A stretch of DNA of 64,000 nt from Candidatus Hydrogenedens sp. (GTDB taxonomy: Bacteria; Hydrogenedentota; Hydrogenedentia; Hydrogenedentales; Hydrogenedentaceae). The DNA lies in the NCBI GenBank assembly GCA_049968235.1, contig JBMFRC010000003.1, positions 64,001-128,000 on the forward strand, written 5' to 3'. Each line of letters starts with the position of its first letter. The first letter of the stretch is position 1. The position numbers were made by a program, and so were the translations under genes. This document shows, one piece after another, positions 43,376-53,648 of the stretch. The notes beneath the pieces were generated by a model, which saw nothing but the letters and a program-made list of their open reading frames with translations, was not told the DNA's origin and ran no database searches.

Positions 43376-44534
43376 CTATCGCACAGGGATACCTGTTTCA
43401 AATATACGATGGAATTCGTCAATATAAAAACGGGCAATTTCATGATTGTCAATAATTATAACATTTTCATCATTCCGTTTTTCCGCTGAATCTGTAAAAT
43501 TATAACTCCCTGTTAAAACTTTTTGTTCATCAAAAATCATAACTTTGTGATGCATGTTCTTGGGTTTGCTATCCCAGCGAACATTTATACCCGCATGTTT
43601 CAAATATTCGTCCTTAGAAGCAATATTCCCCGCATTCCTTTTTTCAAATACCCCCTGAATATCCACCCCTCTATCTTTTGCTCGAACGAAACTATTAGCA
43701 ATAGATTCTGAAGTAAACGAAAAAGCCATAAATCGAATCGACTTATTCGTATTTTGAACCTCTTCAATAATTCTTCTTTCTACTCCATCTTCCGGTGCGA
43801 ACATGTTTAGCAAAGTGGTGTCCTTATCAATATATATTCTTTGATACTTCGTATTTCGGGGAGATTTCATGCCGTAATGATGTTCAAAAAACATTTCATA
43901 GAATTCGTTAATATAATTTTCCGCAAGTTGCGGGGATTGAATTAAGACACTATTATTGTTATTTAAAAAAAGACCATTATAAGTCATGTTTGTCGAACCT
44001 GTCCATACATAAAAGTTGTCCACTATAAAAAACTTATTATGCATAAGTGCTGCGTTATTATCCTCAACCACAGAAATACCTACCGATTTGCATCTCAAAA
44101 TACCTTCCTGTTGGCTATTATCTCGCTCTATAACCAATCTCACATCAACCCCTTGCTGAAATTTTTGAATAATCAATTCCACAATGGGTTCATAATCAAG
44201 TTCATATATCGCACCATAAATACTTTTTTTTCGCCGAATTTAAAAATGAGATGAGTCCCGATACAATCTCTACCTCCTCCCCTTTTACTCCCGGTGATGT
44301 GAAGTAAACAGAAATAGAACGACCTTGCCACGCTAAATATGACTTTTGCCTCTCTTTTGTTTCAATAGAATTAGAAACAGGGAAAAAGACATGGTTTTGT
44401 TGTTCTAAAGCACAGAGAAATAAAATCGAGATAAAGGCACAAAATAAAAAACTGAAAAATAGAAATATAGAAAATCTTCTTTTCTCAGAAAAACTTTTCT
44501 TCAATCCGAATTTACTGTAATAAAAAAAAGACAT
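43376..44534 (-). pseudogene. phospholipase D / HKD nuclease family gene split into two ORFs by a frameshift in an A8 (T8 on + strand, 44224-44231) homopolymer
   Basis: Upstream ORF has signal/TM + SVYFTSPG; removing one A fuses ...SAKKSIYGAIYELDYEPIVELIIQKFQQGVDVRLVIERD (PLD consensus); two HKD motifs HNKFFIVD...GSTN and HHKVMIFD...GSYNFT. Confidence 0.6.
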
Positions 44535-45192: not shown

Positions 45193-46464
45193 ATGGATAT
45201 GATACGAGGTATTTTTTCGGATTATCGTTGGCGGAACTGGTTTCGGATATTTTTTTCTTCGCGTGAGAATTCGAAGATGAGGTCGAGGTCGGTTTTGCGT
45301 CGTTCTCTTGTTTTCAACGCGCCGAATGGTTATTTACAGGGTTTTGTTCCGCTTCCGGATAATGTTCCCTTTCAGATGTTAGAGGTGTATCGTTATCTTC
45401 GGGATAATATTCCGGATTTGTCTGATGCGGTGTGGACATGGAAACGGTTATGCAATACGGGTTTTAGGCTTTCATGGTCGGAGAGAGTATCGGAATCGTT
45501 AAAACGGGATGGACAGGTAATTATTGAACAGTTGAATCGTCGCATGAATCATGGTGAAGGTGGTTTGACGCATCTGTTGGATATTTTGTATACATCCTTG
45601 TTTACATATGGTGCTTCTGCTATAGAAATTGTATTTTCGCCGCGAGGGAGTCAGATTTATGATGTGGTTCCGGTGGATGTATGGACGGTTCGTTTTCGTT
45701 GGGAGGATGGGGATTGGCAGGCGTATCAGGTGTATGCGGAAGAGGTGATACGGCTCCCTCGCGAACGGTTTGTGTATATTGCTCTGGACCGTGATGGAAC
45801 CAATCCGTATGGTCGTTCTTTATTTCGTTCTCTACCTTTTGTGGTACGGATACAACAGCGGTTAATGGAGGATATGTCTCGTGCTATGCATAATGCGGGT
45901 TGGGCTCGTATGCATGTGCAGTATAAGCCTGAACCGCGTGGGACGGATGAAACGGAGGAGGAGTATCAGAGTCGTTTGGATGCAAATTTAGAGCAGGTGC
46001 GGAATCAGATGAGTAATTTGGGGGTAGACCAGAATGTTGTTACTTTTGATAATATTGGCATATCGGTTGTTCAGGGGGCACAGCGTTTTTCGGCGTATTA
46101 TGAAACACAGCGTGCTATTGAGGAACAAATCATTACGGGTGCGCATATGATGCCTATTTTGTTGGGTCGGAATTATGGGACGACGGAGACTTACGGCACG
46201 GTGCAATATGAAATCATGAATCGACAGGTGGATACCATTAATCAATATTTAGCTCGTGTTCTGGAACGGATATATCGTCTGGAATTGTCGATGCATGGGA
46301 TAGAGGCGGAATTTACTGTGCAACCCCAATCGAATAGCACTGCGGATACGGTTAAAAAATCTTTAATAGAAACGAGACGAATTAATACGCTTCTTCAATT
46401 AGTACAATCGGGAATCATTTCTAAGGAAGATGTGCGTAAGGAAGTAGAAGAGATTTTACATTAG
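45193..46464 (+). CDS. putative phage portal-like protein (first gene of phage-head-like module)
   Basis: 423 aa, Arg-rich N-terminus; position at head of a tightly packed SD-rich operon with a capsid-like gene, M15 peptidase and holin-like gene; no definitive motif. Confidence 0.35.
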   Translation: MDMIRGIFSDYRWRNWFRIFFSSRENSKMRSRSVLRRSLVFNAPNGYLQGFVPLPDNVPFQMLEVYRYLRDNIPDLSDAVWTWKRLCNTGFRLSWSERVSESLKRDGQVIIEQLNRRMNHGEGGLTHLLDILYTSLFTYGASAIEIVFSPRGSQIYDVVPVDVWTVRFRWEDGDWQAYQVYAEEVIRLPRERFVYIALDRDGTNPYGRSLFRSLPFVVRIQQRLMEDMSRAMHNAGWARMHVQYKPEPRGTDETEEEYQSRLDANLEQVRNQMSNLGVDQNVVTFDNIGISVVQGAQRFSAYYETQRAIEEQIITGAHMMPILLGRNYGTTETYGTVQYEIMNRQVDTINQYLARVLERIYRLELSMHGIEAEFTVQPQSNSTADTVKKSLIETRRINTLLQLVQSGIISKEDVRKEVEEILH

Positions 46465-46508
46465 GATAAGGTTTTAAGTTTGATTTAACGAACAGAGGAG
46501 GCTTTTTT

Positions 46509-47225
46509 ATGGGTATGCTTGAAAGGCTGTGTTTTTGTGAGCGTTTGGGTGAAGTGGTAAACAACCATTCCGGATTTGCTTCTGAGGGATGGGATAGAGA
46601 AGCGGAGTTATCTGAGATTAATCGTTATACTTTGCGGTCGTTAACAGAGGATGAATATGTTGTTTTTACACTGGACCTTTGCCATAATCAGATTGACCGT
46701 CATTTCAGTTGTTTTCCGGAGAATGAACTGGAAGTGATAGATAAGAAGGTGCCGGGCAGACCTTTAATGGAACGGCACGATTTAAGGGGATCTCTACCGC
46801 GAGGGACTTTTTTCTATTCCCGTCTTCATCGGCAGGGAGATGTTCTATCGGTTCGACCTAAGGTTTATGTATTGAGATTGGAGGAGAATCGGAATTTCAT
46901 TGCCAATATTGAGGGAGGTATTTACAGGGAAACTTCCATTGGTTTTTCTTTTTTATTTCCGGAATGTTCCATTTGTGGTCGTGATATACGGCGCTGTGTG
47001 CATGTTCCTGGTGAGAAATATGAGGGTTCTCTGTGTTTTTATCGTATGCGGGGTGTTCAGGATGTATTGGAGGGGTCTGTGGTAGCGTGTGGTTCACAGG
47101 GCACTTCGTTTGTATCAGATGTGCGAGCACACATATTAGAGCAATTTGGTGAAAAGGGAGGGATTCTGCTTCAACGGAGTTATTTTGGTGGGATGGATAA
47201 AAATAAGGCATGGTGTAAGGAATAG
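46509..47225 (+). CDS. hypothetical Cys-rich protein (position of head maturation protease/scaffold)
   Basis: SD GAGGAGG; CFCERLGE and CSICGRDIRRCVH clusters; no clear catalytic motif. Confidence 0.3.
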   Translation: MGMLERLCFCERLGEVVNNHSGFASEGWDREAELSEINRYTLRSLTEDEYVVFTLDLCHNQIDRHFSCFPENELEVIDKKVPGRPLMERHDLRGSLPRGTFFYSRLHRQGDVLSVRPKVYVLRLEENRNFIANIEGGIYRETSIGFSFLFPECSICGRDIRRCVHVPGEKYEGSLCFYRMRGVQDVLEGSVVACGSQGTSFVSDVRAHILEQFGEKGGILLQRSYFGGMDKNKAWCKE

Positions 47226-47273
47226 GTTTTCAATGAATACAAAAGGCGATAGAACAAGAGAGGAGGTGATTTT

Positions 47274-47471
47274 ATGCTCAGACCATCCACGGTAGCCAGG
47301 CGGAGAAGTAAGTATGATGCGATAAATAATTTATGTGAAGATGTAAGCGAATTGCGGGAGCGTATTTTGCGGTTGGAGCAGTCGTTATTTCGTGGGCTAT
47401 GGCTTTTGATAGCCAATCTGCTTGGGGTTGTGTTTTCTTTAATACAACAGGGGATATTTTTAAACCATTGA
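47274..47471 (+). CDS. small protein with coiled-coil N-terminus and hydrophobic C-terminus
   Basis: SD GAGGAGG 6 nt upstream; ELRERILRLEQSLF then LWLLIANLLGVVFSLI. Confidence 0.3.
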   Translation: MLRPSTVARRRSKYDAINNLCEDVSELRERILRLEQSLFRGLWLLIANLLGVVFSLIQQGIFLNH

Positions 47472-47488
47472 AGAAAGGAGGTGGTTTT

Positions 47489-48214
47489 ATGTTTTGCAGG
47501 ATGATAGAGCATCAAGGAGAAATCCCTGTGGATGTTCCGCTTCATTCCGAAGGTCGTTTTGTGGTTCATGCGCATAAGGACCGGCAGGGTCATCATCTTG
47601 ACTTGCGGATAGAACAGAGGGGCTATCTTCTTGGCTGGCGAATTGATGATACCGAATTACGAAGTGAACTTTGGGGAACGGAGAAACTTCCTCATGACTT
47701 TTCGTGGCTGGATGAGGAAAGACCGGAGGGAACAGGAGTTACGGGTGATTATCGCTGGTTCAGTCAGGGTGATGGAAATGGTTATCTGAATTTGCGGATG
47801 AGTAATAATGAGCAACGCACATATCGTGTGGAGCGATGGGGCGGTTTTTCCATTCGTTTTCAGCGGGCATTGTGGCAAAGTATGCGGAAGTGGCAATTAT
47901 CGCCTTTACAGGTTCTTTCTGTTGTAGAAGATGGGATTAATGCCCGTGAATACGCAATTCGGCGGATATGTGGTTTAGGCAGGTTTCTTGAAGGGGAAAA
48001 TTTTGATGCATCCCAATGGGAAAAGGTTTTATTGCGGTGTTCGTTAAATGAAATCTATGCCCATTTAAGGAAATGGGAAAACCGTCTGGAAAGTCAAAAC
48101 CCACCCCAAAGAATTTCACAGCCGGAAAAGGTTGATGAAGTTTGTGTAGAAAAAGGGAATTTACGAACAAAGCCTGACCTGTTAAATTTAGTGCGTGGTC
48201 AGGGGAAAGTATAA
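47489..48214 (+). CDS. LigD 3'-phosphoesterase (PE) domain-like protein with C-terminal extension
   Basis: SD GGAGGTGG; RFVVHAHKDRQGHHLDLRIEQRGYLLGWRI and KLPHDFSWLDEE match the LigD-PE motifs HxH..H.D.R.E / DHP.DY as recalled. Confidence 0.4.
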   Translation: MFCRMIEHQGEIPVDVPLHSEGRFVVHAHKDRQGHHLDLRIEQRGYLLGWRIDDTELRSELWGTEKLPHDFSWLDEERPEGTGVTGDYRWFSQGDGNGYLNLRMSNNEQRTYRVERWGGFSIRFQRALWQSMRKWQLSPLQVLSVVEDGINAREYAIRRICGLGRFLEGENFDASQWEKVLLRCSLNEIYAHLRKWENRLESQNPPQRISQPEKVDEVCVEKGNLRTKPDLLNLVRGQGKV

Positions 48215-48242
48215 ATAACAGGAAGAAGAAAGGAGGCAAATT

Positions 48243-48623
48243 ATGGCATTTGGAGATATTGGTGGGACATATACCGAGTTGATTATTACATGTAGCACAC
48301 CAGAAACGGGACCTGTAAGTATCCGTCGTGGTGATGCACTGAAACTTATCGGAGGGTATGTGGTAACGAATACTTTTACCGGAGAGGATGTCATTTTCGG
48401 GCAGGCAATGAATGATTGTAATGTGAATGATACCGCTATCCCTGTAAAGGTGCGAGGTATATGCATTTTTGAGTATGAGGGAGTTCCGCCCACAGTAAAT
48501 GGAGTGCAAGGGATTGCGGGTTCGACTACTCCGGGTAAAGTGAAAGCACCTGCGTCCGGGAATGGTTCTGGCAGGGTAGTGAAAACAGAATCTTCTATAA
48601 ATCGGGTCCATGTATTGCTTTAA
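48243..48623 (+). CDS. small Gly/Val-rich protein (DUF2190 / head-decoration-like by size and composition)
   Basis: SD AAAGGAGG; 126 aa; GGYVVTNTF..GQA...VKVRGICIFEYEG..NGVQGIAG. Confidence 0.3.
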   Translation: MAFGDIGGTYTELIITCSTPETGPVSIRRGDALKLIGGYVVTNTFTGEDVIFGQAMNDCNVNDTAIPVKVRGICIFEYEGVPPTVNGVQGIAGSTTPGKVKAPASGNGSGRVVKTESSINRVHVLL

Positions 48624-48640
48624 CAGGAAAGGAGGTTATT

Positions 48641-49690
48641 ATGATGTTATCCATGCAGACAAAATTGACAGAACAGATGCAGTTTCTGTCACAGCCCAAA
48701 GAGAAATTATTATCCATACGCGGGAAGGAATTGTATGAGACATTAAATTCTTTAGGTCTAACCCATACTCAATTTTTCCGTGCTATTGGGACAGATATTG
48801 AGGAATATTGTGCTCGTGAGTTTGGTGTTGATTTATACCAGATTACGGTGGAGCGTTTTTTCCAGACAGACCCTAATGCGAAATGGCTTTTTCCGGACCT
48901 GGTTCGAGAGTCGGTTATTTCAGGGATGACGGGGAAGCCTGTATATTCACAATTGATAATTCGGGATGAGCGTATAGAGAGTGCGGTCTATGATGTGCCA
49001 TATGTTAAGGAGTCGGAGGAAGAGGAAGAACTACGGAATGTCGGCGAAGGAGCGGTTATTCCGGAATCGGAAATAAGGTACGGGAATCGAATTATCCAGT
49101 TACAAAAATTGGGGCGTGGCATTTTAGCGTCGTATGAGGTTATCCGCCGTATGTCTGTGGATATGTTGCGGGTTCATCTTCGTCGGATGGGTGAATGTCT
49201 TGGCAGAAATCTGGATAAACGGCTTGCGTATGTGCTGGCTTATGGGGATATGTCTGGGGAAACAAGTCCGGATGTGCTGAATACGGAGACTGCTAATATA
49301 TGGAAATATACAGACCTCGTCCGTGCTTTCTTGCATTTAACTACGAAGAATTTTTTTCATCCGACGCATCTGCTTGCGAACTCCGATACGATGGAAAAGA
49401 TAATGTCGTTGCCGGAGATTACCGATTCTGCATTGTTTGATTTTGCGAAATCGGGCAATTTGCCGACACCTTTGGGAGTAAAATTGGTGCCCATGTCTGA
49501 CCATCCGGAAAATTGTTTTACTTTACTGGATTCTCGCTATGCAGTCCAGAAGTTAACGGAACAAGATGTGCTTGTAGAAAGTGACCGCCTGATACATCAA
49601 CAATGGGACCGTAGTTATCTTACGGTGGTAACAGATTTCGCCATTATTTATCGAAAGGCGCGTGTGGTTATGCGTTGTGACTGGAGTTAA
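48641..49690 (+). CDS. putative major capsid-like protein
   Basis: SD AAGGAGG; 349 aa; follows the decoration-like gene in canonical head-gene order; no confirmable motif. Confidence 0.3.
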   Translation: MMLSMQTKLTEQMQFLSQPKEKLLSIRGKELYETLNSLGLTHTQFFRAIGTDIEEYCAREFGVDLYQITVERFFQTDPNAKWLFPDLVRESVISGMTGKPVYSQLIIRDERIESAVYDVPYVKESEEEEELRNVGEGAVIPESEIRYGNRIIQLQKLGRGILASYEVIRRMSVDMLRVHLRRMGECLGRNLDKRLAYVLAYGDMSGETSPDVLNTETANIWKYTDLVRAFLHLTTKNFFHPTHLLANSDTMEKIMSLPEITDSALFDFAKSGNLPTPLGVKLVPMSDHPENCFTLLDSRYAVQKLTEQDVLVESDRLIHQQWDRSYLTVVTDFAIIYRKARVVMRCDWS

Positions 49691-49766
49691 TCATACATTG
49701 GAAAAATAATCGGGAGAGGCTTGTAAGTTGTTTTTAACTTATAAGCCTCATCAGGAAAGGATAATT

Positions 49767-50237
49767 ATGAGGGATAGAAATAATGTGCATCTTGCTATTG
49801 AATTCGATGGAAGATGGCTAATAACCCACTTTAATTTGAAAGAGTTTGAGAATAAAAAGGGCTGGGTGATGATACACCGTTCGGTGATTATTTCTCTGAC
49901 AAAAATTCGCGAAGAACTGGGTCGATACTTTGGTGAAGAAGTGGAAATTGTAATAACTGATTCAACACGCACACCTGAGCAATTGCAAGTTTTAGGTGAA
50001 AAATTGGGCTGGATTGATGAAGGTGGTGTAGTTGCACGAAATTCAAAGCATCTGGAAGAATTTGGAGGGATTGCGGTGGATTTCTATGTGCGGTTTAAGC
50101 AAAGCAAGAAACGGATAGATTCATCGACTATTGAAACGATATGTAAAAAGTATTTTGATTATGTTAAATCGGATTATGCGGATGGGCATATTCATGCGGA
50201 TAATCGAGAACATATAACCAACACATGCAAGAAATAA
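49767..50237 (+). CDS. peptidase M15A-like (hedgehog/DD-peptidase fold; endolysin-like)
   Basis: SD AGGA then ATG (MRDRNN); motif ITDSTRTPEQLQVLGEKLG...NSKHLEEFGGIAVDF fits SxHxxGxAxD; later GHIHADNREH. Confidence 0.5.
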   Translation: MRDRNNVHLAIEFDGRWLITHFNLKEFENKKGWVMIHRSVIISLTKIREELGRYFGEEVEIVITDSTRTPEQLQVLGEKLGWIDEGGVVARNSKHLEEFGGIAVDFYVRFKQSKKRIDSSTIETICKKYFDYVKSDYADGHIHADNREHITNTCKK

Positions 50238-50252
50238 GGAGGCGGAAATAGG

Positions 50253-50630
50253 ATGATTCTCAGTATACCTATGTTAGACCAATTTCTTTTTTATTTGATA
50301 ACTGGTGTGTTCGGATGCATCTGGGCAGTTATGCGTGTTTATGAGATTTACCAGCAAATTAAAAATTCACGGTATCGCCTGGCACTAACAATAATTGAAA
50401 GTGCGGTGCAGAAGACTTATGATACCTATACACGGGAGATAAAGAAGGCACGCGAAGACGGAAAATTAACACCGGAAGAACGAAAAAAGGCGTTTGAATT
50501 GGCAATGCAAACCGCTTTAGAGATGGCACGAGGGGAAAATATAGAATTGTATAAGATTCTACGGAAGGAACTTCTACCTTACTTTATTCATAATGCATTG
50601 CAGAAATTGAAGTTGCGAAGAGCCAGGTAA
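50253..50630 (+). CDS. small membrane protein, holin-like
   Basis: SD AAGGAGG; single N-terminal TM FLFYLITGVFGCIWAVM then charged cytoplasmic tail; follows the peptidase gene. Confidence 0.35.
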   Translation: MILSIPMLDQFLFYLITGVFGCIWAVMRVYEIYQQIKNSRYRLALTIIESAVQKTYDTYTREIKKAREDGKLTPEERKKAFELAMQTALEMARGENIELYKILRKELLPYFIHNALQKLKLRRAR

Positions 50631-50667: not shown

Positions 50668-50699
50668 AGACAGGTTGCATAAGCAACCTGTCTTTTTAT
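50668..50699 (+). terminator. rho-independent terminator closing the phage-like operon
   Basis: AGACAGGTTGC-ATAA-GCAACCTGTCT followed by TTTTT. Confidence 0.75.
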
Positions 50700-50763
50700 G
50701 ATAATATATTTTCGGATTCTTTTATGGAATAAAGTGAACATGAAAAATAAGAAAGGAAAATTT

Positions 50764-52542
50764 ATGAAACTATGCCTTTTCATAATTATCGTAACTGTAT
50801 TGCTTTTCGCTGTATCTATAGAAGCAGAAGAAATACCCCGGCCTGAACACCCCCGACCGGATATGCAGAGGAATACCTGGCTGAACCTGAATGGTTATTG
50901 GGAATTTGTGGAAACGGATGATGATAATGCGACTTTTTTAGATACCGGTGCAAAGTTTCCGGACCGTATTCTGGTTCCGTTCTGTCGGGAAAGTGAATTG
51001 TCGGGACTGAACCGCAAACATTTCGTCCGCAATGTATGGTACCGTCGTTCCTTCTTTGTTCCCGCGGAATGGAAAGAAAACCGCATACTGCTCCATATTG
51101 GTGCTTGCGATTGGAAGACGCAGGTATGGGTAAATGGAAATTTATGTGGTGAACATTTTGGCGGAAGTGCCCCAATTACCTGCGATATAACTACCTCTAT
51201 AAAGGATGGTGAAAATACGATAGTTGTCCATTCGTATGATGATGTTCGCACGGGTATTCAAGCGGGTGGCAAACAGTCAACGAAACCAGAAAGTTATGGC
51301 TGTGTTTATACCCGAACAACAGGCATCTGGCAGACGGTCTGGTTAGAAAGTGTTGGGAAAACATACATTGAGCGATTCCGTTTATATCCGGATGTGGATA
51401 ACCGACAGGTCAAATTACACGCAGTATGTCGTGGCGATTTGCCTGCGGGATTAATGCTACAGGCGGATGCGCTTTTTAATGGTGCCATAGTTGGTTCTGC
51501 GTCTGTAGCCATAAAGGGAGATAGTGCAGACTTAACCATCCCGTTAAGTGTGCTTCAACTCTGGGAACCCGGACAGCCTAACTTATATGACCTTAAATTA
51601 TCGCTAAAGCAGGGAGATGTGGTAGTAGATAGTTTCATGTCGTATTTTGGTATGCGTAAAATAACATTAGAAGGGAGGAAATTCCTCATTAATGATAAAC
51701 CTATTTTCCATCGCGCAGTGTTAGACCAGGGATTTTACCCTACGGGTATCTGGACTGCTCCGAGCGATGATGAGTTGCGTGCAGATATTGAACGTTCTAT
51801 GAAAGCAGGATTTAATGGTGCGAGAATACATCAGAAAGTTTTTGAACCGCGTTTCTTATACTGGGCAGATAAGTTAGGCTATATTGTCTGGGGTGAATTT
51901 CCGGATTGGGGCTTTGACCATAAAAATCCAGCAGGACAGTTATATTATATTAATGAATGGCGGGAAATTGTAGAACGTGATTTCAATCACCCTGCAATTA
52001 TTGGCTGGTGTCCCTTTAATGAGACACCGAAGGAAGCAGTCCCTCTACAACGGGTTGTATTTGAACTAACGCGTGCCATCGACACAACCCGTCCTATTCT
52101 GGAAGCCAGTGGGTGGACACATGGCTATGCTTACCCTATGGTGATAGATGCACATGATTATGAGCAGGACCCAGTCAAGTTTCGGGCAAAATGGGATAAG
52201 GTCGGTGAAAACTCACCGAAGCCGGATGTTCCCTATGCGGATAGTCGTCCCGTTCCATTTTTCATTAGCGAATACGGAGGAATTGGCTGGAATGTGGAAA
52301 GCGGAGGTTGGGGCTATGGCAATAATCCAAAGACACTGGATGAATTTTATGAACGGTTAGAAGGATTAACCAAAGCCATCTTGGATAACCCCTATATTTT
52401 CGGCTTTTGTTATACACAATTGACGAACATCGAACAGGAGCAGAATGGTATTTATACCTATGACCGTAAACCGAAGTTTGACCTTGATCGAATCAAATCT
52501 ATTTTCTCTGCGGAATCTGCATACGAAAAGGCTGGGAAATAA
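50764..52542 (+). CDS. glycoside hydrolase family 2-like protein, secreted
   Basis: Signal peptide MKLCLFIIIVTVLLFAVSIEA; GH2 sugar-binding domain pattern NRKHFVRNVWYRRSFFVPAEWKENRILLHIGACDWKTQVWVNGNLCGEHFGGSAPITCDIT. Confidence 0.7.
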   Translation: MKLCLFIIIVTVLLFAVSIEAEEIPRPEHPRPDMQRNTWLNLNGYWEFVETDDDNATFLDTGAKFPDRILVPFCRESELSGLNRKHFVRNVWYRRSFFVPAEWKENRILLHIGACDWKTQVWVNGNLCGEHFGGSAPITCDITTSIKDGENTIVVHSYDDVRTGIQAGGKQSTKPESYGCVYTRTTGIWQTVWLESVGKTYIERFRLYPDVDNRQVKLHAVCRGDLPAGLMLQADALFNGAIVGSASVAIKGDSADLTIPLSVLQLWEPGQPNLYDLKLSLKQGDVVVDSFMSYFGMRKITLEGRKFLINDKPIFHRAVLDQGFYPTGIWTAPSDDELRADIERSMKAGFNGARIHQKVFEPRFLYWADKLGYIVWGEFPDWGFDHKNPAGQLYYINEWREIVERDFNHPAIIGWCPFNETPKEAVPLQRVVFELTRAIDTTRPILEASGWTHGYAYPMVIDAHDYEQDPVKFRAKWDKVGENSPKPDVPYADSRPVPFFISEYGGIGWNVESGGWGYGNNPKTLDEFYERLEGLTKAILDNPYIFGFCYTQLTNIEQEQNGIYTYDRKPKFDLDRIKSIFSAESAYEKAGK

Positions 52543-52581
52543 AATCCCCTTTTTAAGGTTGAAAACATATAGAGAGGTGAT

Positions 52582-53082
52582 ATGAGCGAAATAGCTATAA
52601 TTAAATATGAATTTGCACCATCGCCTGATGTAGAACAGGGTACAATCCTGCGGATGCCTTCATTCGTTAGTTTGGAATTGGAACAGCAAATCCGCAAGAA
52701 TGCCTTGCATGGGGCTTGTCTTCGTGGTGTAAATTTGACAGGTGTCTGGCTCGAAGGAATTGATTTTTCATCTGCAGACCTTACCGATGCATGTCTTGAA
52801 TTCGCAGTGTTGAGTTCGTGTAATTTTCAAAATTGTAATTTAGAAAAGGCTAATTTAAAGCGGGTAAATTTAATCGGTGCAAATCTAGACGGCGCAAATC
52901 TAAAAAATGCGGACTTGTATTATGCACGGCTTACCTGTGCAAGTTTAAAAAAGGCAGATTTAAGTGGTGCGAACTTAGAACGAACTATCCTCCGTTGTGC
53001 CGATTTGAGTGGTGCAAAATTAACCAATGCACGCGGAAATCCTGTGCTTGACCGAACAAGGATGGAGGGGATTATTTCATGA
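52582..53082 (+). CDS. pentapeptide repeat protein
   Basis: Tandem A(D/N)LxxA(N/D)L pentapeptides (ANLKRVNLIGANLDGANLKNADLYYARL...). Confidence 0.8.
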   Translation: MSEIAIIKYEFAPSPDVEQGTILRMPSFVSLELEQQIRKNALHGACLRGVNLTGVWLEGIDFSSADLTDACLEFAVLSSCNFQNCNLEKANLKRVNLIGANLDGANLKNADLYYARLTCASLKKADLSGANLERTILRCADLSGAKLTNARGNPVLDRTRMEGIIS

Positions 53083-53648
53083 TAATTTATCACTTCTGCA
53101 CACGGGTCAATGAAGCCAATGCATATTTGTTGATAGATACAGACACCAAGGAATGTTTACTCATAGATGTGCCTGCATGGACAGAACGAATGCAGAAAAT
53201 CCTTGATGAACATAAGGCACGACTTATTGGAGTATTCATAACCCATGAACATTATGACCACACTTCCGGTTTGAGTGAGTTATACAAGACATACCCTGAT
53301 ATAAAACGATACCCACAACAAGAGTTTTTTAATGATACTGATAATGAGCATTATAATAAAATTAGTGTAGGAAAATGGGAAGGAAAGATATTATACCTGC
53401 CGGGGCATACCCCGGAAAGTGTCGGGTTATATATAGGTAATGTAGTCTTCACCGGGGATGCTCTTTTTGCAGGTTCTGTCGGAGGCACTGTAAGTTTGCG
53501 GGAAGCAAAACAACAGGTGGAAGCCATAAAAAAGAGAATATTGGCTTTGCGGGAACATACCCTTGTATTGACAGGACATGGACCAGCTTCGTCTGTTGGA
53601 ATAGAAAAGAGGTTCAATCCCTTTCTGCAAGATAACAATTCCGTATAA
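53079..53648 (+). CDS. MBL-fold metallo-hydrolase
   Basis: HxHxDH motif ITHEHYDHTSG; 4-nt overlap with the pentapeptide repeat gene. Confidence 0.75.
   Translation: MIIYHFCTRVNEANAYLLIDTDTKECLLIDVPAWTERMQKILDEHKARLIGVFITHEHYDHTSGLSELYKTYPDIKRYPQQEFFNDTDNEHYNKISVGKWEGKILYLPGHTPESVGLYIGNVVFTGDALFAGSVGGTVSLREAKQQVEAIKKRILALREHTLVLTGHGPASSVGIEKRFNPFLQDNNSV

What the first reader, a model, noticed from the sequence alone, without database searches (positions are those of the whole stretch)
47489..48214. LigD 3'-phosphoesterase-like domain protein embedded in the phage-like head operon
The sequence RFVVHAHKDRQGHHLDLRIEQRGYLLGWRI...KLPHDFSWLDEE reproduces, as I recall them, the LigD-PE / DNA-ligase-D 3'-phosphoesterase motifs (H-x-H, H..D.R.E, then a D/E-H-P-x-D-F/Y loop). 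A DNA-end-healing enzyme sitting between scaffold-like and decoration-like genes is not a normal head-gene component. It could process packaged DNA ends or act in anti-defense or DNA repair during injection, or I may have misread the fold.
Basis: inference. Interest (0 to 1): 0.5.

Follow-up and report, generated by a model that had tools for sequence, protein, structure and literature searches.

The report
Capsid-assembly protein carrying DNA-end-repair domain
A gene inside a small, phylum-wide conserved phage-capsid gene cassette of Hydrogenedentota bacteria encodes a protein whose front half has the fold and active-site residues of the DNA-end-cleaning (3'-phosphoesterase) domain of ligase D and whose back half is related to a phage head-assembly protein, suggesting an enzyme that is built into the capsid.

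Summary

New here: only residues ~20-117 are PE. Residues ~118-241 form a helical domain related (hhalign 87%, E 4e-6) to the C-terminal part of ~420-aa phage proteins that sit between portal and capsid genes. The N-terminal part of those phage proteins matches the separate upstream gene 46509-47225.

The gene belongs to a cassette (portal, p238, p65, PE-like, p126, capsid, lysis-like genes) found in over 80 Hydrogenedentota species among housekeeping genes. No terminase lies within 10 kb. All cassette genes are under purifying selection.

Best reading: a metal-dependent 3'-end phosphoesterase brought into the procapsid by a scaffold-derived domain. Activity, packaging and substrate are untested. 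It falls below the Pfam and TIGRFAM cut-offs, so it is a remote relative with a new architecture.

The parts
47475..47481 (+). Shine-Dalgarno AAGGAGG, 7 nt upstream of the ATG at 47489
   Evidence: Read directly from the sequence.
47489..48214 (+). PE-like / head-assembly fusion gene (241 aa including stop codon)
   Evidence: ORF. 84 homologues of 230-257 aa. dN/dS 0.12 against the closest orthologue.
47546..47839 (+). LigD-PE-like beta-barrel domain (residues 20-117). Catalytic codons: H29 47573-47575, H36 47594-47596, D38 47600-47602, R40 47606-47608, H69 47693-47695; W73 (Tyr position) 47705-47707
47840..48097 (+). Helical C-terminal domain (residues 118-203), related to the C-terminal domain of ~420-aa phage head-assembly proteins
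   Evidence: AlphaFold helices 122-203, pLDDT above 90. In 1.84 billion proteins found only in this architecture, plus weak hits to P0145-P0147. hhalign A2 vs A3: probability 87%, E 4.2e-6, 81 columns.
48098..48211 (+). C-terminal tail (residues 204-241): conserved (K/Q)xPPxxxSxPE motif, variable acidic linker, and a short near-terminal motif (LLNLVRG here; A-x-x-I-L/V-R-G/E/D in most homologues)
   Evidence: Alignments. Low pLDDT. The phage A3 proteins have the same layout (IPAGR, linker, DDAFKVGR).
45193..46464 (+). Portal protein, first gene of the cassette
   Evidence: PF06074 Portal_Mu 2e-10; phrog_3753 6e-51.
46509..47225 (+). p238: homologue of the N-terminal half of the ~400-420-aa phage proteins at the protease/scaffold position (function not established)
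   Evidence: phrog_16951 6e-32. BLASTP 4e-13 to the Bacillus phage CUBc25 403-aa protein and 1e-10 to P0150. Invariant H90 and S143. No Pfam or PDB support, and the structure model failed.
47274..47471 (+). p65: small coiled-coil plus C-terminal transmembrane protein (XhlA-like)
   Evidence: phrog_1193 E 0.004. Conserved in 56-65 loci.
48243..48623 (+). p126: small virion/decoration-like protein preceding the capsid gene
   Evidence: phrog_4588 E 0.0012. Same position as the 129-148-aa genes in related phages.
48641..49690 (+). Major capsid protein (HK97-type)
   Evidence: PF25209 Phage_capsid_4 2e-7; phrog_3922 4e-45.
49728..50237 (+). p169: putative cell-wall peptidase (endolysin-like)
   Evidence: The L037 orthologue hits phrog_465 endolysin at E 0.006. 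An SxHxxGxAxD ... HxH motif is read from the sequence and compared with LAS/M15 peptidases from memory; this is weak.
50253..50630 (+). p125: holin-like membrane protein, last gene of the cassette
   Evidence: phrog_13712 holin 4e-5.

Best explanation
The gene encodes a two-domain protein. Residues ~20-117 form a LigD-type 3'-phosphoesterase (PE) beta-barrel with an intact His-His-Asp metal site and the Arg/His phosphate-binding pair. This part is shown by homology, fold and conservation. Residues ~118-241 are a helical domain plus flexible tail derived from the C-terminal part of a phage head-assembly protein (the single ~420-aa gene between portal and capsid genes in related phages). This homology is shown at moderate confidence. 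In Hydrogenedentota that ancestral gene appears as two genes: p238 keeps the N-terminal part, and the C-terminal part now carries a PE domain instead. I infer that the C-terminal domain and tail act as a scaffold or capsid-docking module that brings the PE domain into the assembling procapsid. The particle made by this cassette would then contain, or be assembled around, a Mn2+-type phosphoesterase acting on nucleic-acid 3' ends (3'-phosphate or 3'-terminal ribonucleotide), either on the packaged DNA or after delivery. PE Tyr-to-Ala mutants keep some diesterase activity but largely lose monoesterase activity, so the invariant Tyr-to-Trp change suggests altered chemistry or a substrate different from classical LigD PE. 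The cassette itself behaves like a domesticated, mostly vertically inherited phage remnant rather than a prophage.
Against: No biochemical data exist. All PE hits are far below curated thresholds (14-15 bits against 31 and 144). The Tyr that coordinates the nucleophilic water for the monoesterase step is replaced by Trp in about 97% of sequences. About 5% of family members have lost the metal-binding histidines yet keep the protein, which argues that a non-catalytic (structural) role can suffice. The C-domain homology rests on one profile-profile hit of 87% probability and three weak HMM hits. Single-sequence PHROG scans of the family do not reach significance. The function of the phage A3/phrog_37798 proteins is itself unannotated. 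The 'protease' assignment for p238 got no Pfam, PDB or structural support. No terminase was found near any cassette, so it is unknown whether the particle packages DNA at all. Encapsidation of the protein is pure inference.
Confidence: 0.45

Rival explanations
1. The protein is simply the scaffolding protein of the particle. The PE barrel is an exapted structural or oligomerisation (perhaps phosphate- or DNA-binding) domain with no catalytic role.
For: It occupies the scaffold slot (portal, p238..., X, p126, capsid), and no other scaffold candidate exists in the cassette. The C-domain is related to phage head-assembly proteins. Six family members have lost the metal-binding histidines but persist. 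Tyr is replaced by Trp at the nucleophile-water position.
Against: All five essential catalytic residues are kept in 95% of 187 sequences that are otherwise only ~35-40% identical. The PE barrel is at least as conserved as the C-domain (column conservation 0.61 vs 0.59; identity to distant members 40% vs 34%). A purely structural barrel would not be expected to hold a His-His-Asp-Arg-His constellation.
Confidence: 0.25
2. It is an active end-healing or phosphodiesterase enzyme that works free in the cytoplasm and is not packaged. It might prepare DNA ends for packaging, repair nuclease damage, or counter a defence system. The C-domain would then only tether it to assembling heads or to another partner.
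For: PE fold and active site. In about 50 genomes the cassette also encodes a 583-aa protein with a staphylococcal-nuclease domain (Pfam 8.6e-5, NCBIfam EcnA 5e-5). From general knowledge, that nuclease class leaves 3'-phosphate ends, the substrate of PE enzymes.
Against: The short form of the cassette, including this window, lacks the nuclease gene yet keeps the PE-like gene. The C-domain is found nowhere outside this architecture except in proteins at the phage head-assembly position.
Confidence: 0.2
3. The resemblance to LigD PE is spurious. The N-domain would be another small beta-barrel, such as a CYTH/triphosphate-tunnel enzyme, or the motif is a chance match.
For: The single sequence gives no Pfam hit. 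Foldseek E-values are modest (2e-3 to 1e-2), and CYTH/TTM proteins appear among the lower hits and are the best hits in the viral structure library.
Confidence: 0.03

Closest known systems
LigD 3'-phosphoesterase domain and stand-alone archaeal PE enzymes (PaePE 3n9b/2lj6, CkoPE 3p4h, MbaPE 3p43; Pfam PF13298, TIGR02777)
   Same: Eight-stranded beta-barrel of ~100 residues. The R-F-V ... H ... H-x-D-x-R-x-E ... H motif order is the same. The His/His/Asp metal ligands and the Arg/His phosphate ligands are conserved. Size is like the minimal archaeal PEs.
   Different: Scores lie far below the family cut-offs. There is a one-residue insertion between the two metal histidines. Tyr is replaced by an invariant Trp. 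Extra family-specific invariant residues are D31, R51 and K66. The domain is fused to a C-terminal helical domain instead of ligase/polymerase domains or standing alone. It is encoded in a capsid cassette, not with Ku or ligase genes.
Phage head-assembly proteins of the phrog_37798 / phrog_16951 type (~400-426 aa; e.g. Bacillus phage vB_BcM_CUBc25 XRA41832.1 and Ruminiclostridium hungatei CLHUN_02200, named 'DUF2213 domain-containing' by UniRef)
   Same: They occupy the same slot between portal and a ~130-aa protein plus a PF25209 capsid gene. Their C-terminal helical domain plus Pro-containing motif, linker and short terminal motif aligns with residues ~137-217 of the PE-like protein.
   Different: In the phages one polypeptide carries the p238-like N-domain and the C-domain. 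Here p238 is a separate gene and the C-domain is preceded by a PE barrel. The function of the phage proteins is not experimentally defined.
Lambda gpC/Nu3 nested protease-scaffold arrangement; capsid-targeted internal proteins of T4; encapsulin cargo proteins with C-terminal loading peptides (all from general knowledge)
   Same: These are precedents for a shared C-terminal or terminal module that brings different 'payload' domains (protease, scaffold, enzymes) into an HK97-fold shell.
   Different: No sequence relationship was shown. No precedent known to me, or found in the searched literature, has a LigD-PE-type payload.
Gene transfer agents and other domesticated phage-particle clusters (e.g. 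RcGTA; general knowledge)
   Same: A chromosomal, phylum-wide conserved phage structural cluster under purifying selection. It has no integrase or replication genes, has lysis-like genes, and sits among housekeeping genes.
   Different: It is much smaller (5.4-9 kb). No terminase lies within 10 kb. There are no tail-tube or tape-measure genes. The short form has no tail genes at all. DNA packaging is unproven.

Membership tests
LigD 3'-phosphoesterase (PE) superfamily | Eight-stranded beta-barrel PE fold | tested here: met
LigD 3'-phosphoesterase (PE) superfamily | Score above curated family thresholds (Pfam PF13298 gathering 31.1 bits; TIGR02777 cut-off 144 bits) | tested here: not met
   The window protein has no PF13298 hit at E<=1. 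The L037 orthologue scores 14.1 bits. 29/47 members hit only weakly, best E 2e-4. TIGR02777 scores 15.3 bits. It is a remote relative only.
LigD 3'-phosphoesterase (PE) superfamily | His-His-Asp manganese ligands (CkoPE His9, His15, Asp17) | tested here: met
   H29, H36 and D38 align to them and are present in 180-183 of 187 sequences.
LigD 3'-phosphoesterase (PE) superfamily | Phosphate-binding Arg and His (CkoPE Arg19, His51) | tested here: met
   R40 and H69 align to them and are each present in 184 of 187 sequences.
LigD 3'-phosphoesterase (PE) superfamily | Active-site Tyr that holds the water nucleophile (CkoPE Tyr55 / PaePE Tyr88) | tested here: not met
   The position is Trp (W73) in 181 of 187 sequences and never Tyr. 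Tyr-to-Ala mutants of PE keep 18-23% diesterase activity but are impaired in the monoesterase step (PMC3082917).
LigD 3'-phosphoesterase (PE) superfamily | Mn2+-dependent 3'-phosphodiesterase / 3'-phosphomonoesterase activity on 3' ends | not testable with these tools
   Needs a biochemical assay.
Bacterial LigD / NHEJ module | PE fused to or clustered with ATP-dependent ligase, polymerase domain or Ku | tested here: not met
   The protein is 241 aa with no ligase or polymerase domain. Its neighbours are portal, capsid and lysis-like genes in all loci.
Phage head-assembly (protease/scaffold-position) proteins, phrog_37798-type | Homologous C-terminal helical domain | tested here: met
   hmmsearch hits P0145-P0147 at E 3e-4 to 7e-4 across 1.84e9 proteins. 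These hit phrog_37798 positions 340-450. hhalign A2 vs A3 gives probability 87%, E 4e-6. This is moderate, not overwhelming, support.
Phage head-assembly (protease/scaffold-position) proteins, phrog_37798-type | Gene position between portal and the small protein plus PF25209 capsid gene | tested here: met
   Same order in the window and in over 70 loci and in phages or prophages L087, L089 and L090.
Phage head-assembly (protease/scaffold-position) proteins, phrog_37798-type | p238-like N-terminal domain on the same polypeptide | tested here: not met
   The N-terminal domain here is the PE barrel. The p238-like part is a separate gene, 46509-47225.
Phage head-assembly (protease/scaffold-position) proteins, phrog_37798-type | Scaffolding or capsid-targeting function | not testable with these tools
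   Inferred from position only. The PHROG families are annotated 'unknown function'.
Gene transfer agent-like domesticated particle | Conserved chromosomal structural-gene cluster under purifying selection, inherited with the host | tested here: inconclusive
   Present in over 80 species representatives. dN/dS is 0.05-0.12 and dS equals that of the flanking GH2 gene in the closest pair. The left flank is not conserved even with the closest relative, and no host-versus-cassette phylogeny was made.
Gene transfer agent-like domesticated particle | Terminase for DNA packaging | tested here: not met
   No match to the TerL of the two related phages in the window or in 86 loci (+-10 kb). No recurrent extra gene family lies upstream of the portal. 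A distant or remote-locus terminase is not excluded.

The most novel reading that the evidence does not exclude
Hydrogenedentota carry a domesticated, terminase-less phage capsid module. In the window's clade it is a tail-less 'head plus lysis' form. Its scaffold has been rebuilt to load a nucleic-acid 3'-end phosphoesterase into the shell. That would make it either a new type of gene-transfer or delivery particle whose cargo includes an end-processing enzyme, or a phage-derived enzyme nanocompartment comparable to encapsulins but with a portal.
Probability: 0.2. Interest if true: 0.85.

Novelty: new variant of a known kind. Interest (0 to 1): 0.6.

Why it matters
LigD-type phosphoesterases are known as DNA-repair end-healing enzymes of NHEJ and as orphan archaeal proteins whose partners are unknown. 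Finding one fused to a phage head-assembly domain, in the scaffold slot of a capsid cassette kept by a whole bacterial phylum, gives this enzyme family a new biological setting. It also gives a testable example of 'payload swapping' on a capsid-targeting module. The protein further flags an undescribed, compact, terminase-less capsid cassette in Hydrogenedentota. That cassette may be a new domesticated phage-derived particle, and the PE-like protein is its most distinctive component and a handle for experiments.

Tried and rejected
- Single-sequence searches of the protein (Pfam, PHROGs, PDB phmmer, tblastn against 50,697 GenBank phages) gave nothing significant.
- Scanning all 47 members singly against PHROGs did not link them significantly to phrog_37798 (2 members, E 0.15). 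The link needed profiles.
- The word-indexed search with the C-domain profile returned only fragments of the same family.
- IMG/VR holds only two short contigs with the gene, so no complete phage genome carrying it was found.
- The BFVD viral fold library has no PE-like match; only weak CYTH hits appeared.
- I tried to confirm p238 as a prohead protease. PDB profile searches with A3 and A4 found nothing. A Pfam scan of 38 members found nothing. I therefore do not call p238 a protease.
- hhalign of the family against the Caulobacter phage Seuss 385-aa protein found no relationship.
- Promoter/terminator and Rfam scans of 43-52 kb showed nothing above background.
- Literature searches (Hydrogenedentes plus gene transfer agent; Hydrogenedentota plus prophage plus capsid; LigD plus phosphoesterase plus phage/capsid/scaffolding; DUF2213) found no description of this protein or cassette.
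- I considered and rejected a prophage (housekeeping flanks, no terminase or integrase). I also rejected a host NHEJ gene inserted by chance, given strict synteny in over 80 species and the phage-derived C-domain.

Full report
**1. The observation**

An AAGGAGG box lies at 47475-47481, 7 nt upstream. The mechanically longer ORF from 47399 overlaps the upstream gene, and the homologues start at the position of M1, so 47489 is the real start. The quoted strings are residues 23-52 and 66-77.

**2. Is it LigD-PE-like?**

The single sequence gives no significant hit in Pfam, PHROGs or the PDB. It has 84 homologues of 230-257 aa, nearly all from Hydrogenedentota metagenome-assembled genomes and none with a precomputed Pfam domain.

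A profile of 47 of these (alignment A1) hits only LigD phosphoesterase structures in the PDB:
- 3p43 (Methanosarcina barkeri PE), E 1.1e-6
- 3p4h (Ca. Korarchaeum PE), E 3.7e-5
- 5dmp, then 2lj6/3n9b (Pseudomonas LigD PE), more weakly

Supporting results:
- 29 of 47 members give weak PF13298 LigD_N hits.
- TIGR02777 LigD_PE_dom is the only NCBIfam hit (E 0.013).
- An AlphaFold2 model built on A1 has mean pLDDT 88. It shows a beta-barrel (residues 1-117), a helical domain (122-203) and a low-confidence tail.
- Foldseek against the PDB ranks 3p43, 3p4h and 3n9b first, second and fourth.

The barrel is therefore a remote member of the PE superfamily. It scores far below the curated thresholds (14-15 bits against 31.1 and 144), so it would not be annotated as such.

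**3. Active site**

The mapping uses the alignment and the published CkoPE active site (PMC3082917). In CkoPE, His9, His15 and Asp17 bind Mn, Arg19 and His51 bind the phosphate, and Tyr55 holds a water.

| CkoPE residue | Window residue | Count in 187 unique sequences |
|---|---|---|
| His9 | H29 | 180 |
| His15 | H36 | 180 |
| Asp17 | D38 | 183 |
| Arg19 | R40 | 184 |
| His51 | H69 | 184 |
| Tyr55 | W73 | 181 (Trp; never Tyr) |

The first five are invariant in A1, although overall identity to distant members is only about 35-40%. According to the paper, Tyr-to-Ala mutants keep 18-23% phosphodiesterase activity and are more impaired in the 3'-phosphomonoesterase step. I infer that this family, if active, has altered chemistry or substrate preference.

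Nine of the 187 sequences lack the full signature. Six of them have lost one or both metal histidines: L070, P0104, P0113, P0124, P0131 and P0140. The protein can therefore persist without catalysis in some lineages. Additional family-specific invariant residues (D31, R51, K66) have no counterpart in classical PEs.

**4. The C-terminal half**

Residues 118-241 were searched on their own.
- A word-indexed profile search returned only fragments of the same family.
- An exhaustive HMM search of 1.84 billion representative proteins found 52 proteins. Full-length hits in the 220-260 aa range all place the domain behind an N-terminal region of PE-domain length; the rest are shorter fragments.
- The exceptions were three weak hits, P0145-P0147, at E 3e-4 to 7e-4.

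P0146 turned out to be a fragment of ~416-426-aa proteins (alignment A3). The connections are:
- The N-terminal ~170-240 residues of these proteins are homologous to the window's upstream gene p238, 46509-47225 (BLASTP 1e-10 to P0150; 4e-13 to the 403-aa protein of Bacillus phage vB_BcM_CUBc25).
- Their C-terminal ~80 residues align with the PE-family C-domain (hhalign A2 vs A3: probability 87%, E 4.2e-6, 81 columns).
- One PHROG, phrog_37798, covers both parts. p238 hits its positions 136-178 and P0145-P0147 hit positions ~340-450.
- Both families end the same way: helical domain, a conserved Pro-containing motif (KYPPxPVSRPE versus EIPAGR), a variable linker, and a short conserved terminal motif (A-x-x-I-L/V-R-G versus DDAFKVGR).

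In a Ruminiclostridium prophage and a 53-kb phage contig the order is portal, A3 protein, ~131-144-aa protein, then a PF25209 capsid protein; a tape-measure gene lies downstream in both. A Terminase_6C gene is annotated upstream in the phage contig; the prophage has only an unannotated 492-aa ORF at that position. Bacillus phage CUBc25 has the same order.

The Hydrogenedentota cassette thus has, in the single A3 slot, three genes: p238, p65 and the PE-like gene. The simplest reading is that the ancestral head-assembly gene was split and its C-terminal module now carries a PE barrel.

What the A3-type proteins do is not established. Their position is that of the protease/scaffold. Relatives give weak hits to head-maturation-protease PHROGs (E 2.8e-3 and 1.8e-4) and to Pfam Phage_scaffold (E 0.01). 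My attempts to confirm a protease fold for p238 failed.

**5. The cassette and its distribution**

The window carries eight tightly spaced + strand genes between 45193 and 50630:

| Gene | Coordinates | Evidence |
|---|---|---|
| portal | 45193-46464 | phrog_3753, 6e-51 |
| p238 | 46509-47225 | phrog_16951, 6e-32 |
| p65 | 47274-47471 | coiled coil plus transmembrane helix; XhlA-like phrog_1193, E 0.004 |
| PE-like | 47489-48214 | see sections 2-4 |
| p126 | 48243-48623 | phrog_4588, E 0.0012 |
| major capsid protein | 48641-49690 | phrog_3922, 4e-45 |
| p169 | 49728-50237 | endolysin-like; weak |
| p125 | 50253-50630 | holin phrog_13712, 4e-5 |

Upstream lie Rho, DNA polymerase I, LpxB, an oxidoreductase, LpxA and a PLD-family gene. 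Downstream lie a GH2 glycosidase, a pentapeptide-repeat protein and an MBL-fold protein.

A scan of one genome per GTDB species found the gene in 83 genomes, essentially all Hydrogenedentota. A few are labelled otherwise and are probably mis-binned.

tblastn shows the order portal, p238, p65, PE-like, p126, capsid throughout. Identities to the window are about 62% for the capsid protein, 64% for p238, 58% for p126 and 52% for the portal, but only ~37% for the PE-like protein.

About 50 genomes have a long form, with four more genes between the capsid gene and p169:
- a 160-aa protein
- a Dit-like protein (phrog_33, 4e-7)
- a 583-aa protein with a staphylococcal-nuclease domain (Pfam 8.6e-5; NCBIfam EcnA 5e-5)
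- a 173-aa protein

The window's clade and several other lineages have a short form without them.

About 15 genomes have a variable lectin-like ORF between p238 and p65 (Laminin_G_3 2.6e-22 in L025).

No terminase homologous to those of the related phages occurs in the window or within 10 kb of any of the 86 loci. No other gene family recurs upstream of the portal.

Against the closest orthologous locus (L005, Ca. Hydrogenedens terephthalaticus), all cassette genes have dN/dS of 0.05-0.12. Their dS values (0.6-1.3) bracket that of the flanking GH2 gene (0.80). The right flank is shared within the clade, but the left flank is not.

The PE family is absent from GenBank phages. It is present on only two short IMG/VR contigs.

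Together this looks like a domesticated phage remnant rather than a prophage. Strict vertical inheritance was not tested.

**6. How it most likely works**

- *Shown:* a PE-fold barrel with a conserved metal/phosphate site; a C-terminal module shared with phage head-assembly proteins; fixed membership in a capsid cassette; purifying selection.
- *Inferred:* the C-terminal module docks the protein to the inside of the assembling shell, as scaffold or as targeting domain. The PE barrel would then be incorporated into, or act at, the procapsid. There or after release it would hydrolyse phosphoester bonds at nucleic-acid 3' ends in a metal-dependent reaction.

I put about 0.45 on this composite. 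The component estimates are about 0.9 for PE superfamily homology, 0.65 for a functional active site, 0.75 for the C-domain homology, 0.5 for capsid targeting or scaffolding, and 0.3 for a nucleic-acid 3'-end substrate.

The rivals are:
- a purely structural scaffold with a relic barrel (0.25)
- a free cytoplasmic end-processing or anti-defence enzyme (0.2)
- a spurious PE resemblance (0.03)

The co-occurring nuclease-domain protein in long-form cassettes would fit an end-healing partner, because that nuclease class leaves 3'-phosphates (general knowledge). However, the short form keeps the PE-like gene without it.

**7. Novelty and verdict**

The searched literature has no description of this protein, of a PE domain in a phage head module, or of this cassette. 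The enzyme fold is known. The architecture (PE plus head-assembly domain), the Tyr-to-Trp active-site variant and the genomic setting are new, so I rate it a new variant of a known kind.

Three corrections apply: only half of the protein is PE-like, the scaffold-like element is in this protein itself, and the 'operon' is a stand-alone, terminase-less cassette conserved across a phylum. Interest: 0.6.

Noticed in passing
window 45193-50630; loci L001, L003-L084: A compact capsid cassette (portal, p238, p65, PE-like, p126, capsid protein, endolysin-like, holin-like) is conserved in over 80 Hydrogenedentota species. It sits among housekeeping genes, with no terminase, integrase or tail-tube/tape-measure genes within 10 kb. 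It may be an undescribed domesticated phage-derived particle.
   Followed up: partly
L037 12723-15848 (and ~50 other loci); absent from the window: The long form of the cassette has four extra genes between the capsid gene and p169: a 160-aa protein, a Dit-like distal-tail protein, a 583-aa protein with a staphylococcal-nuclease (SNase/EcnA-like) domain, and a 173-aa protein. The window's clade and L039, L054, L061, L075, L080 and L086 have a short, apparently tail-less form.
   Followed up: partly
L011 7678-9366, L025 7390-8508, L059 8004-9677, L081 2124-3680 and about 10 more loci: Variable 370-620-aa ORFs, some with lectin or carbohydrate-binding domains (Laminin_G_3 2.6e-22; CBM_4_9 weak), are inserted between p238 and p65 in about 15 genomes. 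They could be a diversifying receptor-binding or head-fibre protein.
   Followed up: partly
window 47274-47471 (+): p65 is a 65-aa protein with a coiled coil and a C-terminal transmembrane helix, weakly similar to XhlA-type 'hemolysin' lysis proteins (phrog_1193, E 0.004). It is conserved inside the head-gene block directly upstream of the PE-like gene, an odd place for a membrane protein.
   Followed up: no
window 50698-53648 (+); L003-L007: A GH2 glycosidase, a pentapeptide-repeat protein and an MBL-fold hydrolase (weak precomputed Anti-Pycsar Apyc1 hit in L003/L004) stay linked to the right end of the cassette within the Hydrogenedens clade. The left flank differs even from the closest relative (L005).
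   Followed up: partly
window 43376-44182 (-): A PLD-family protein (PLDc_2 2e-41, with a weak NgoFVII restriction-endonuclease PLD-domain hit) lies immediately upstream of the cassette on the opposite strand. It was not found next to the cassette in any other locus.
   Followed up: no
L070 7338-8039; proteins P0104, P0113, P0124, P0131, P0140: A few family members have lost one or both metal-binding histidines of the PE site but keep the C-terminal domain. This suggests a catalysis-independent role in those lineages.
   Followed up: partly
L008, L011, L013, L015, L055, L063 and others: Several contigs carrying the cassette belong to MAGs labelled Nitrospirales, Nitrospiraceae, Bathyarchaeia, Rhodothermaeota or Planctomycetota. 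These are probably binning or labelling errors rather than true occurrences outside Hydrogenedentota.
   Followed up: no
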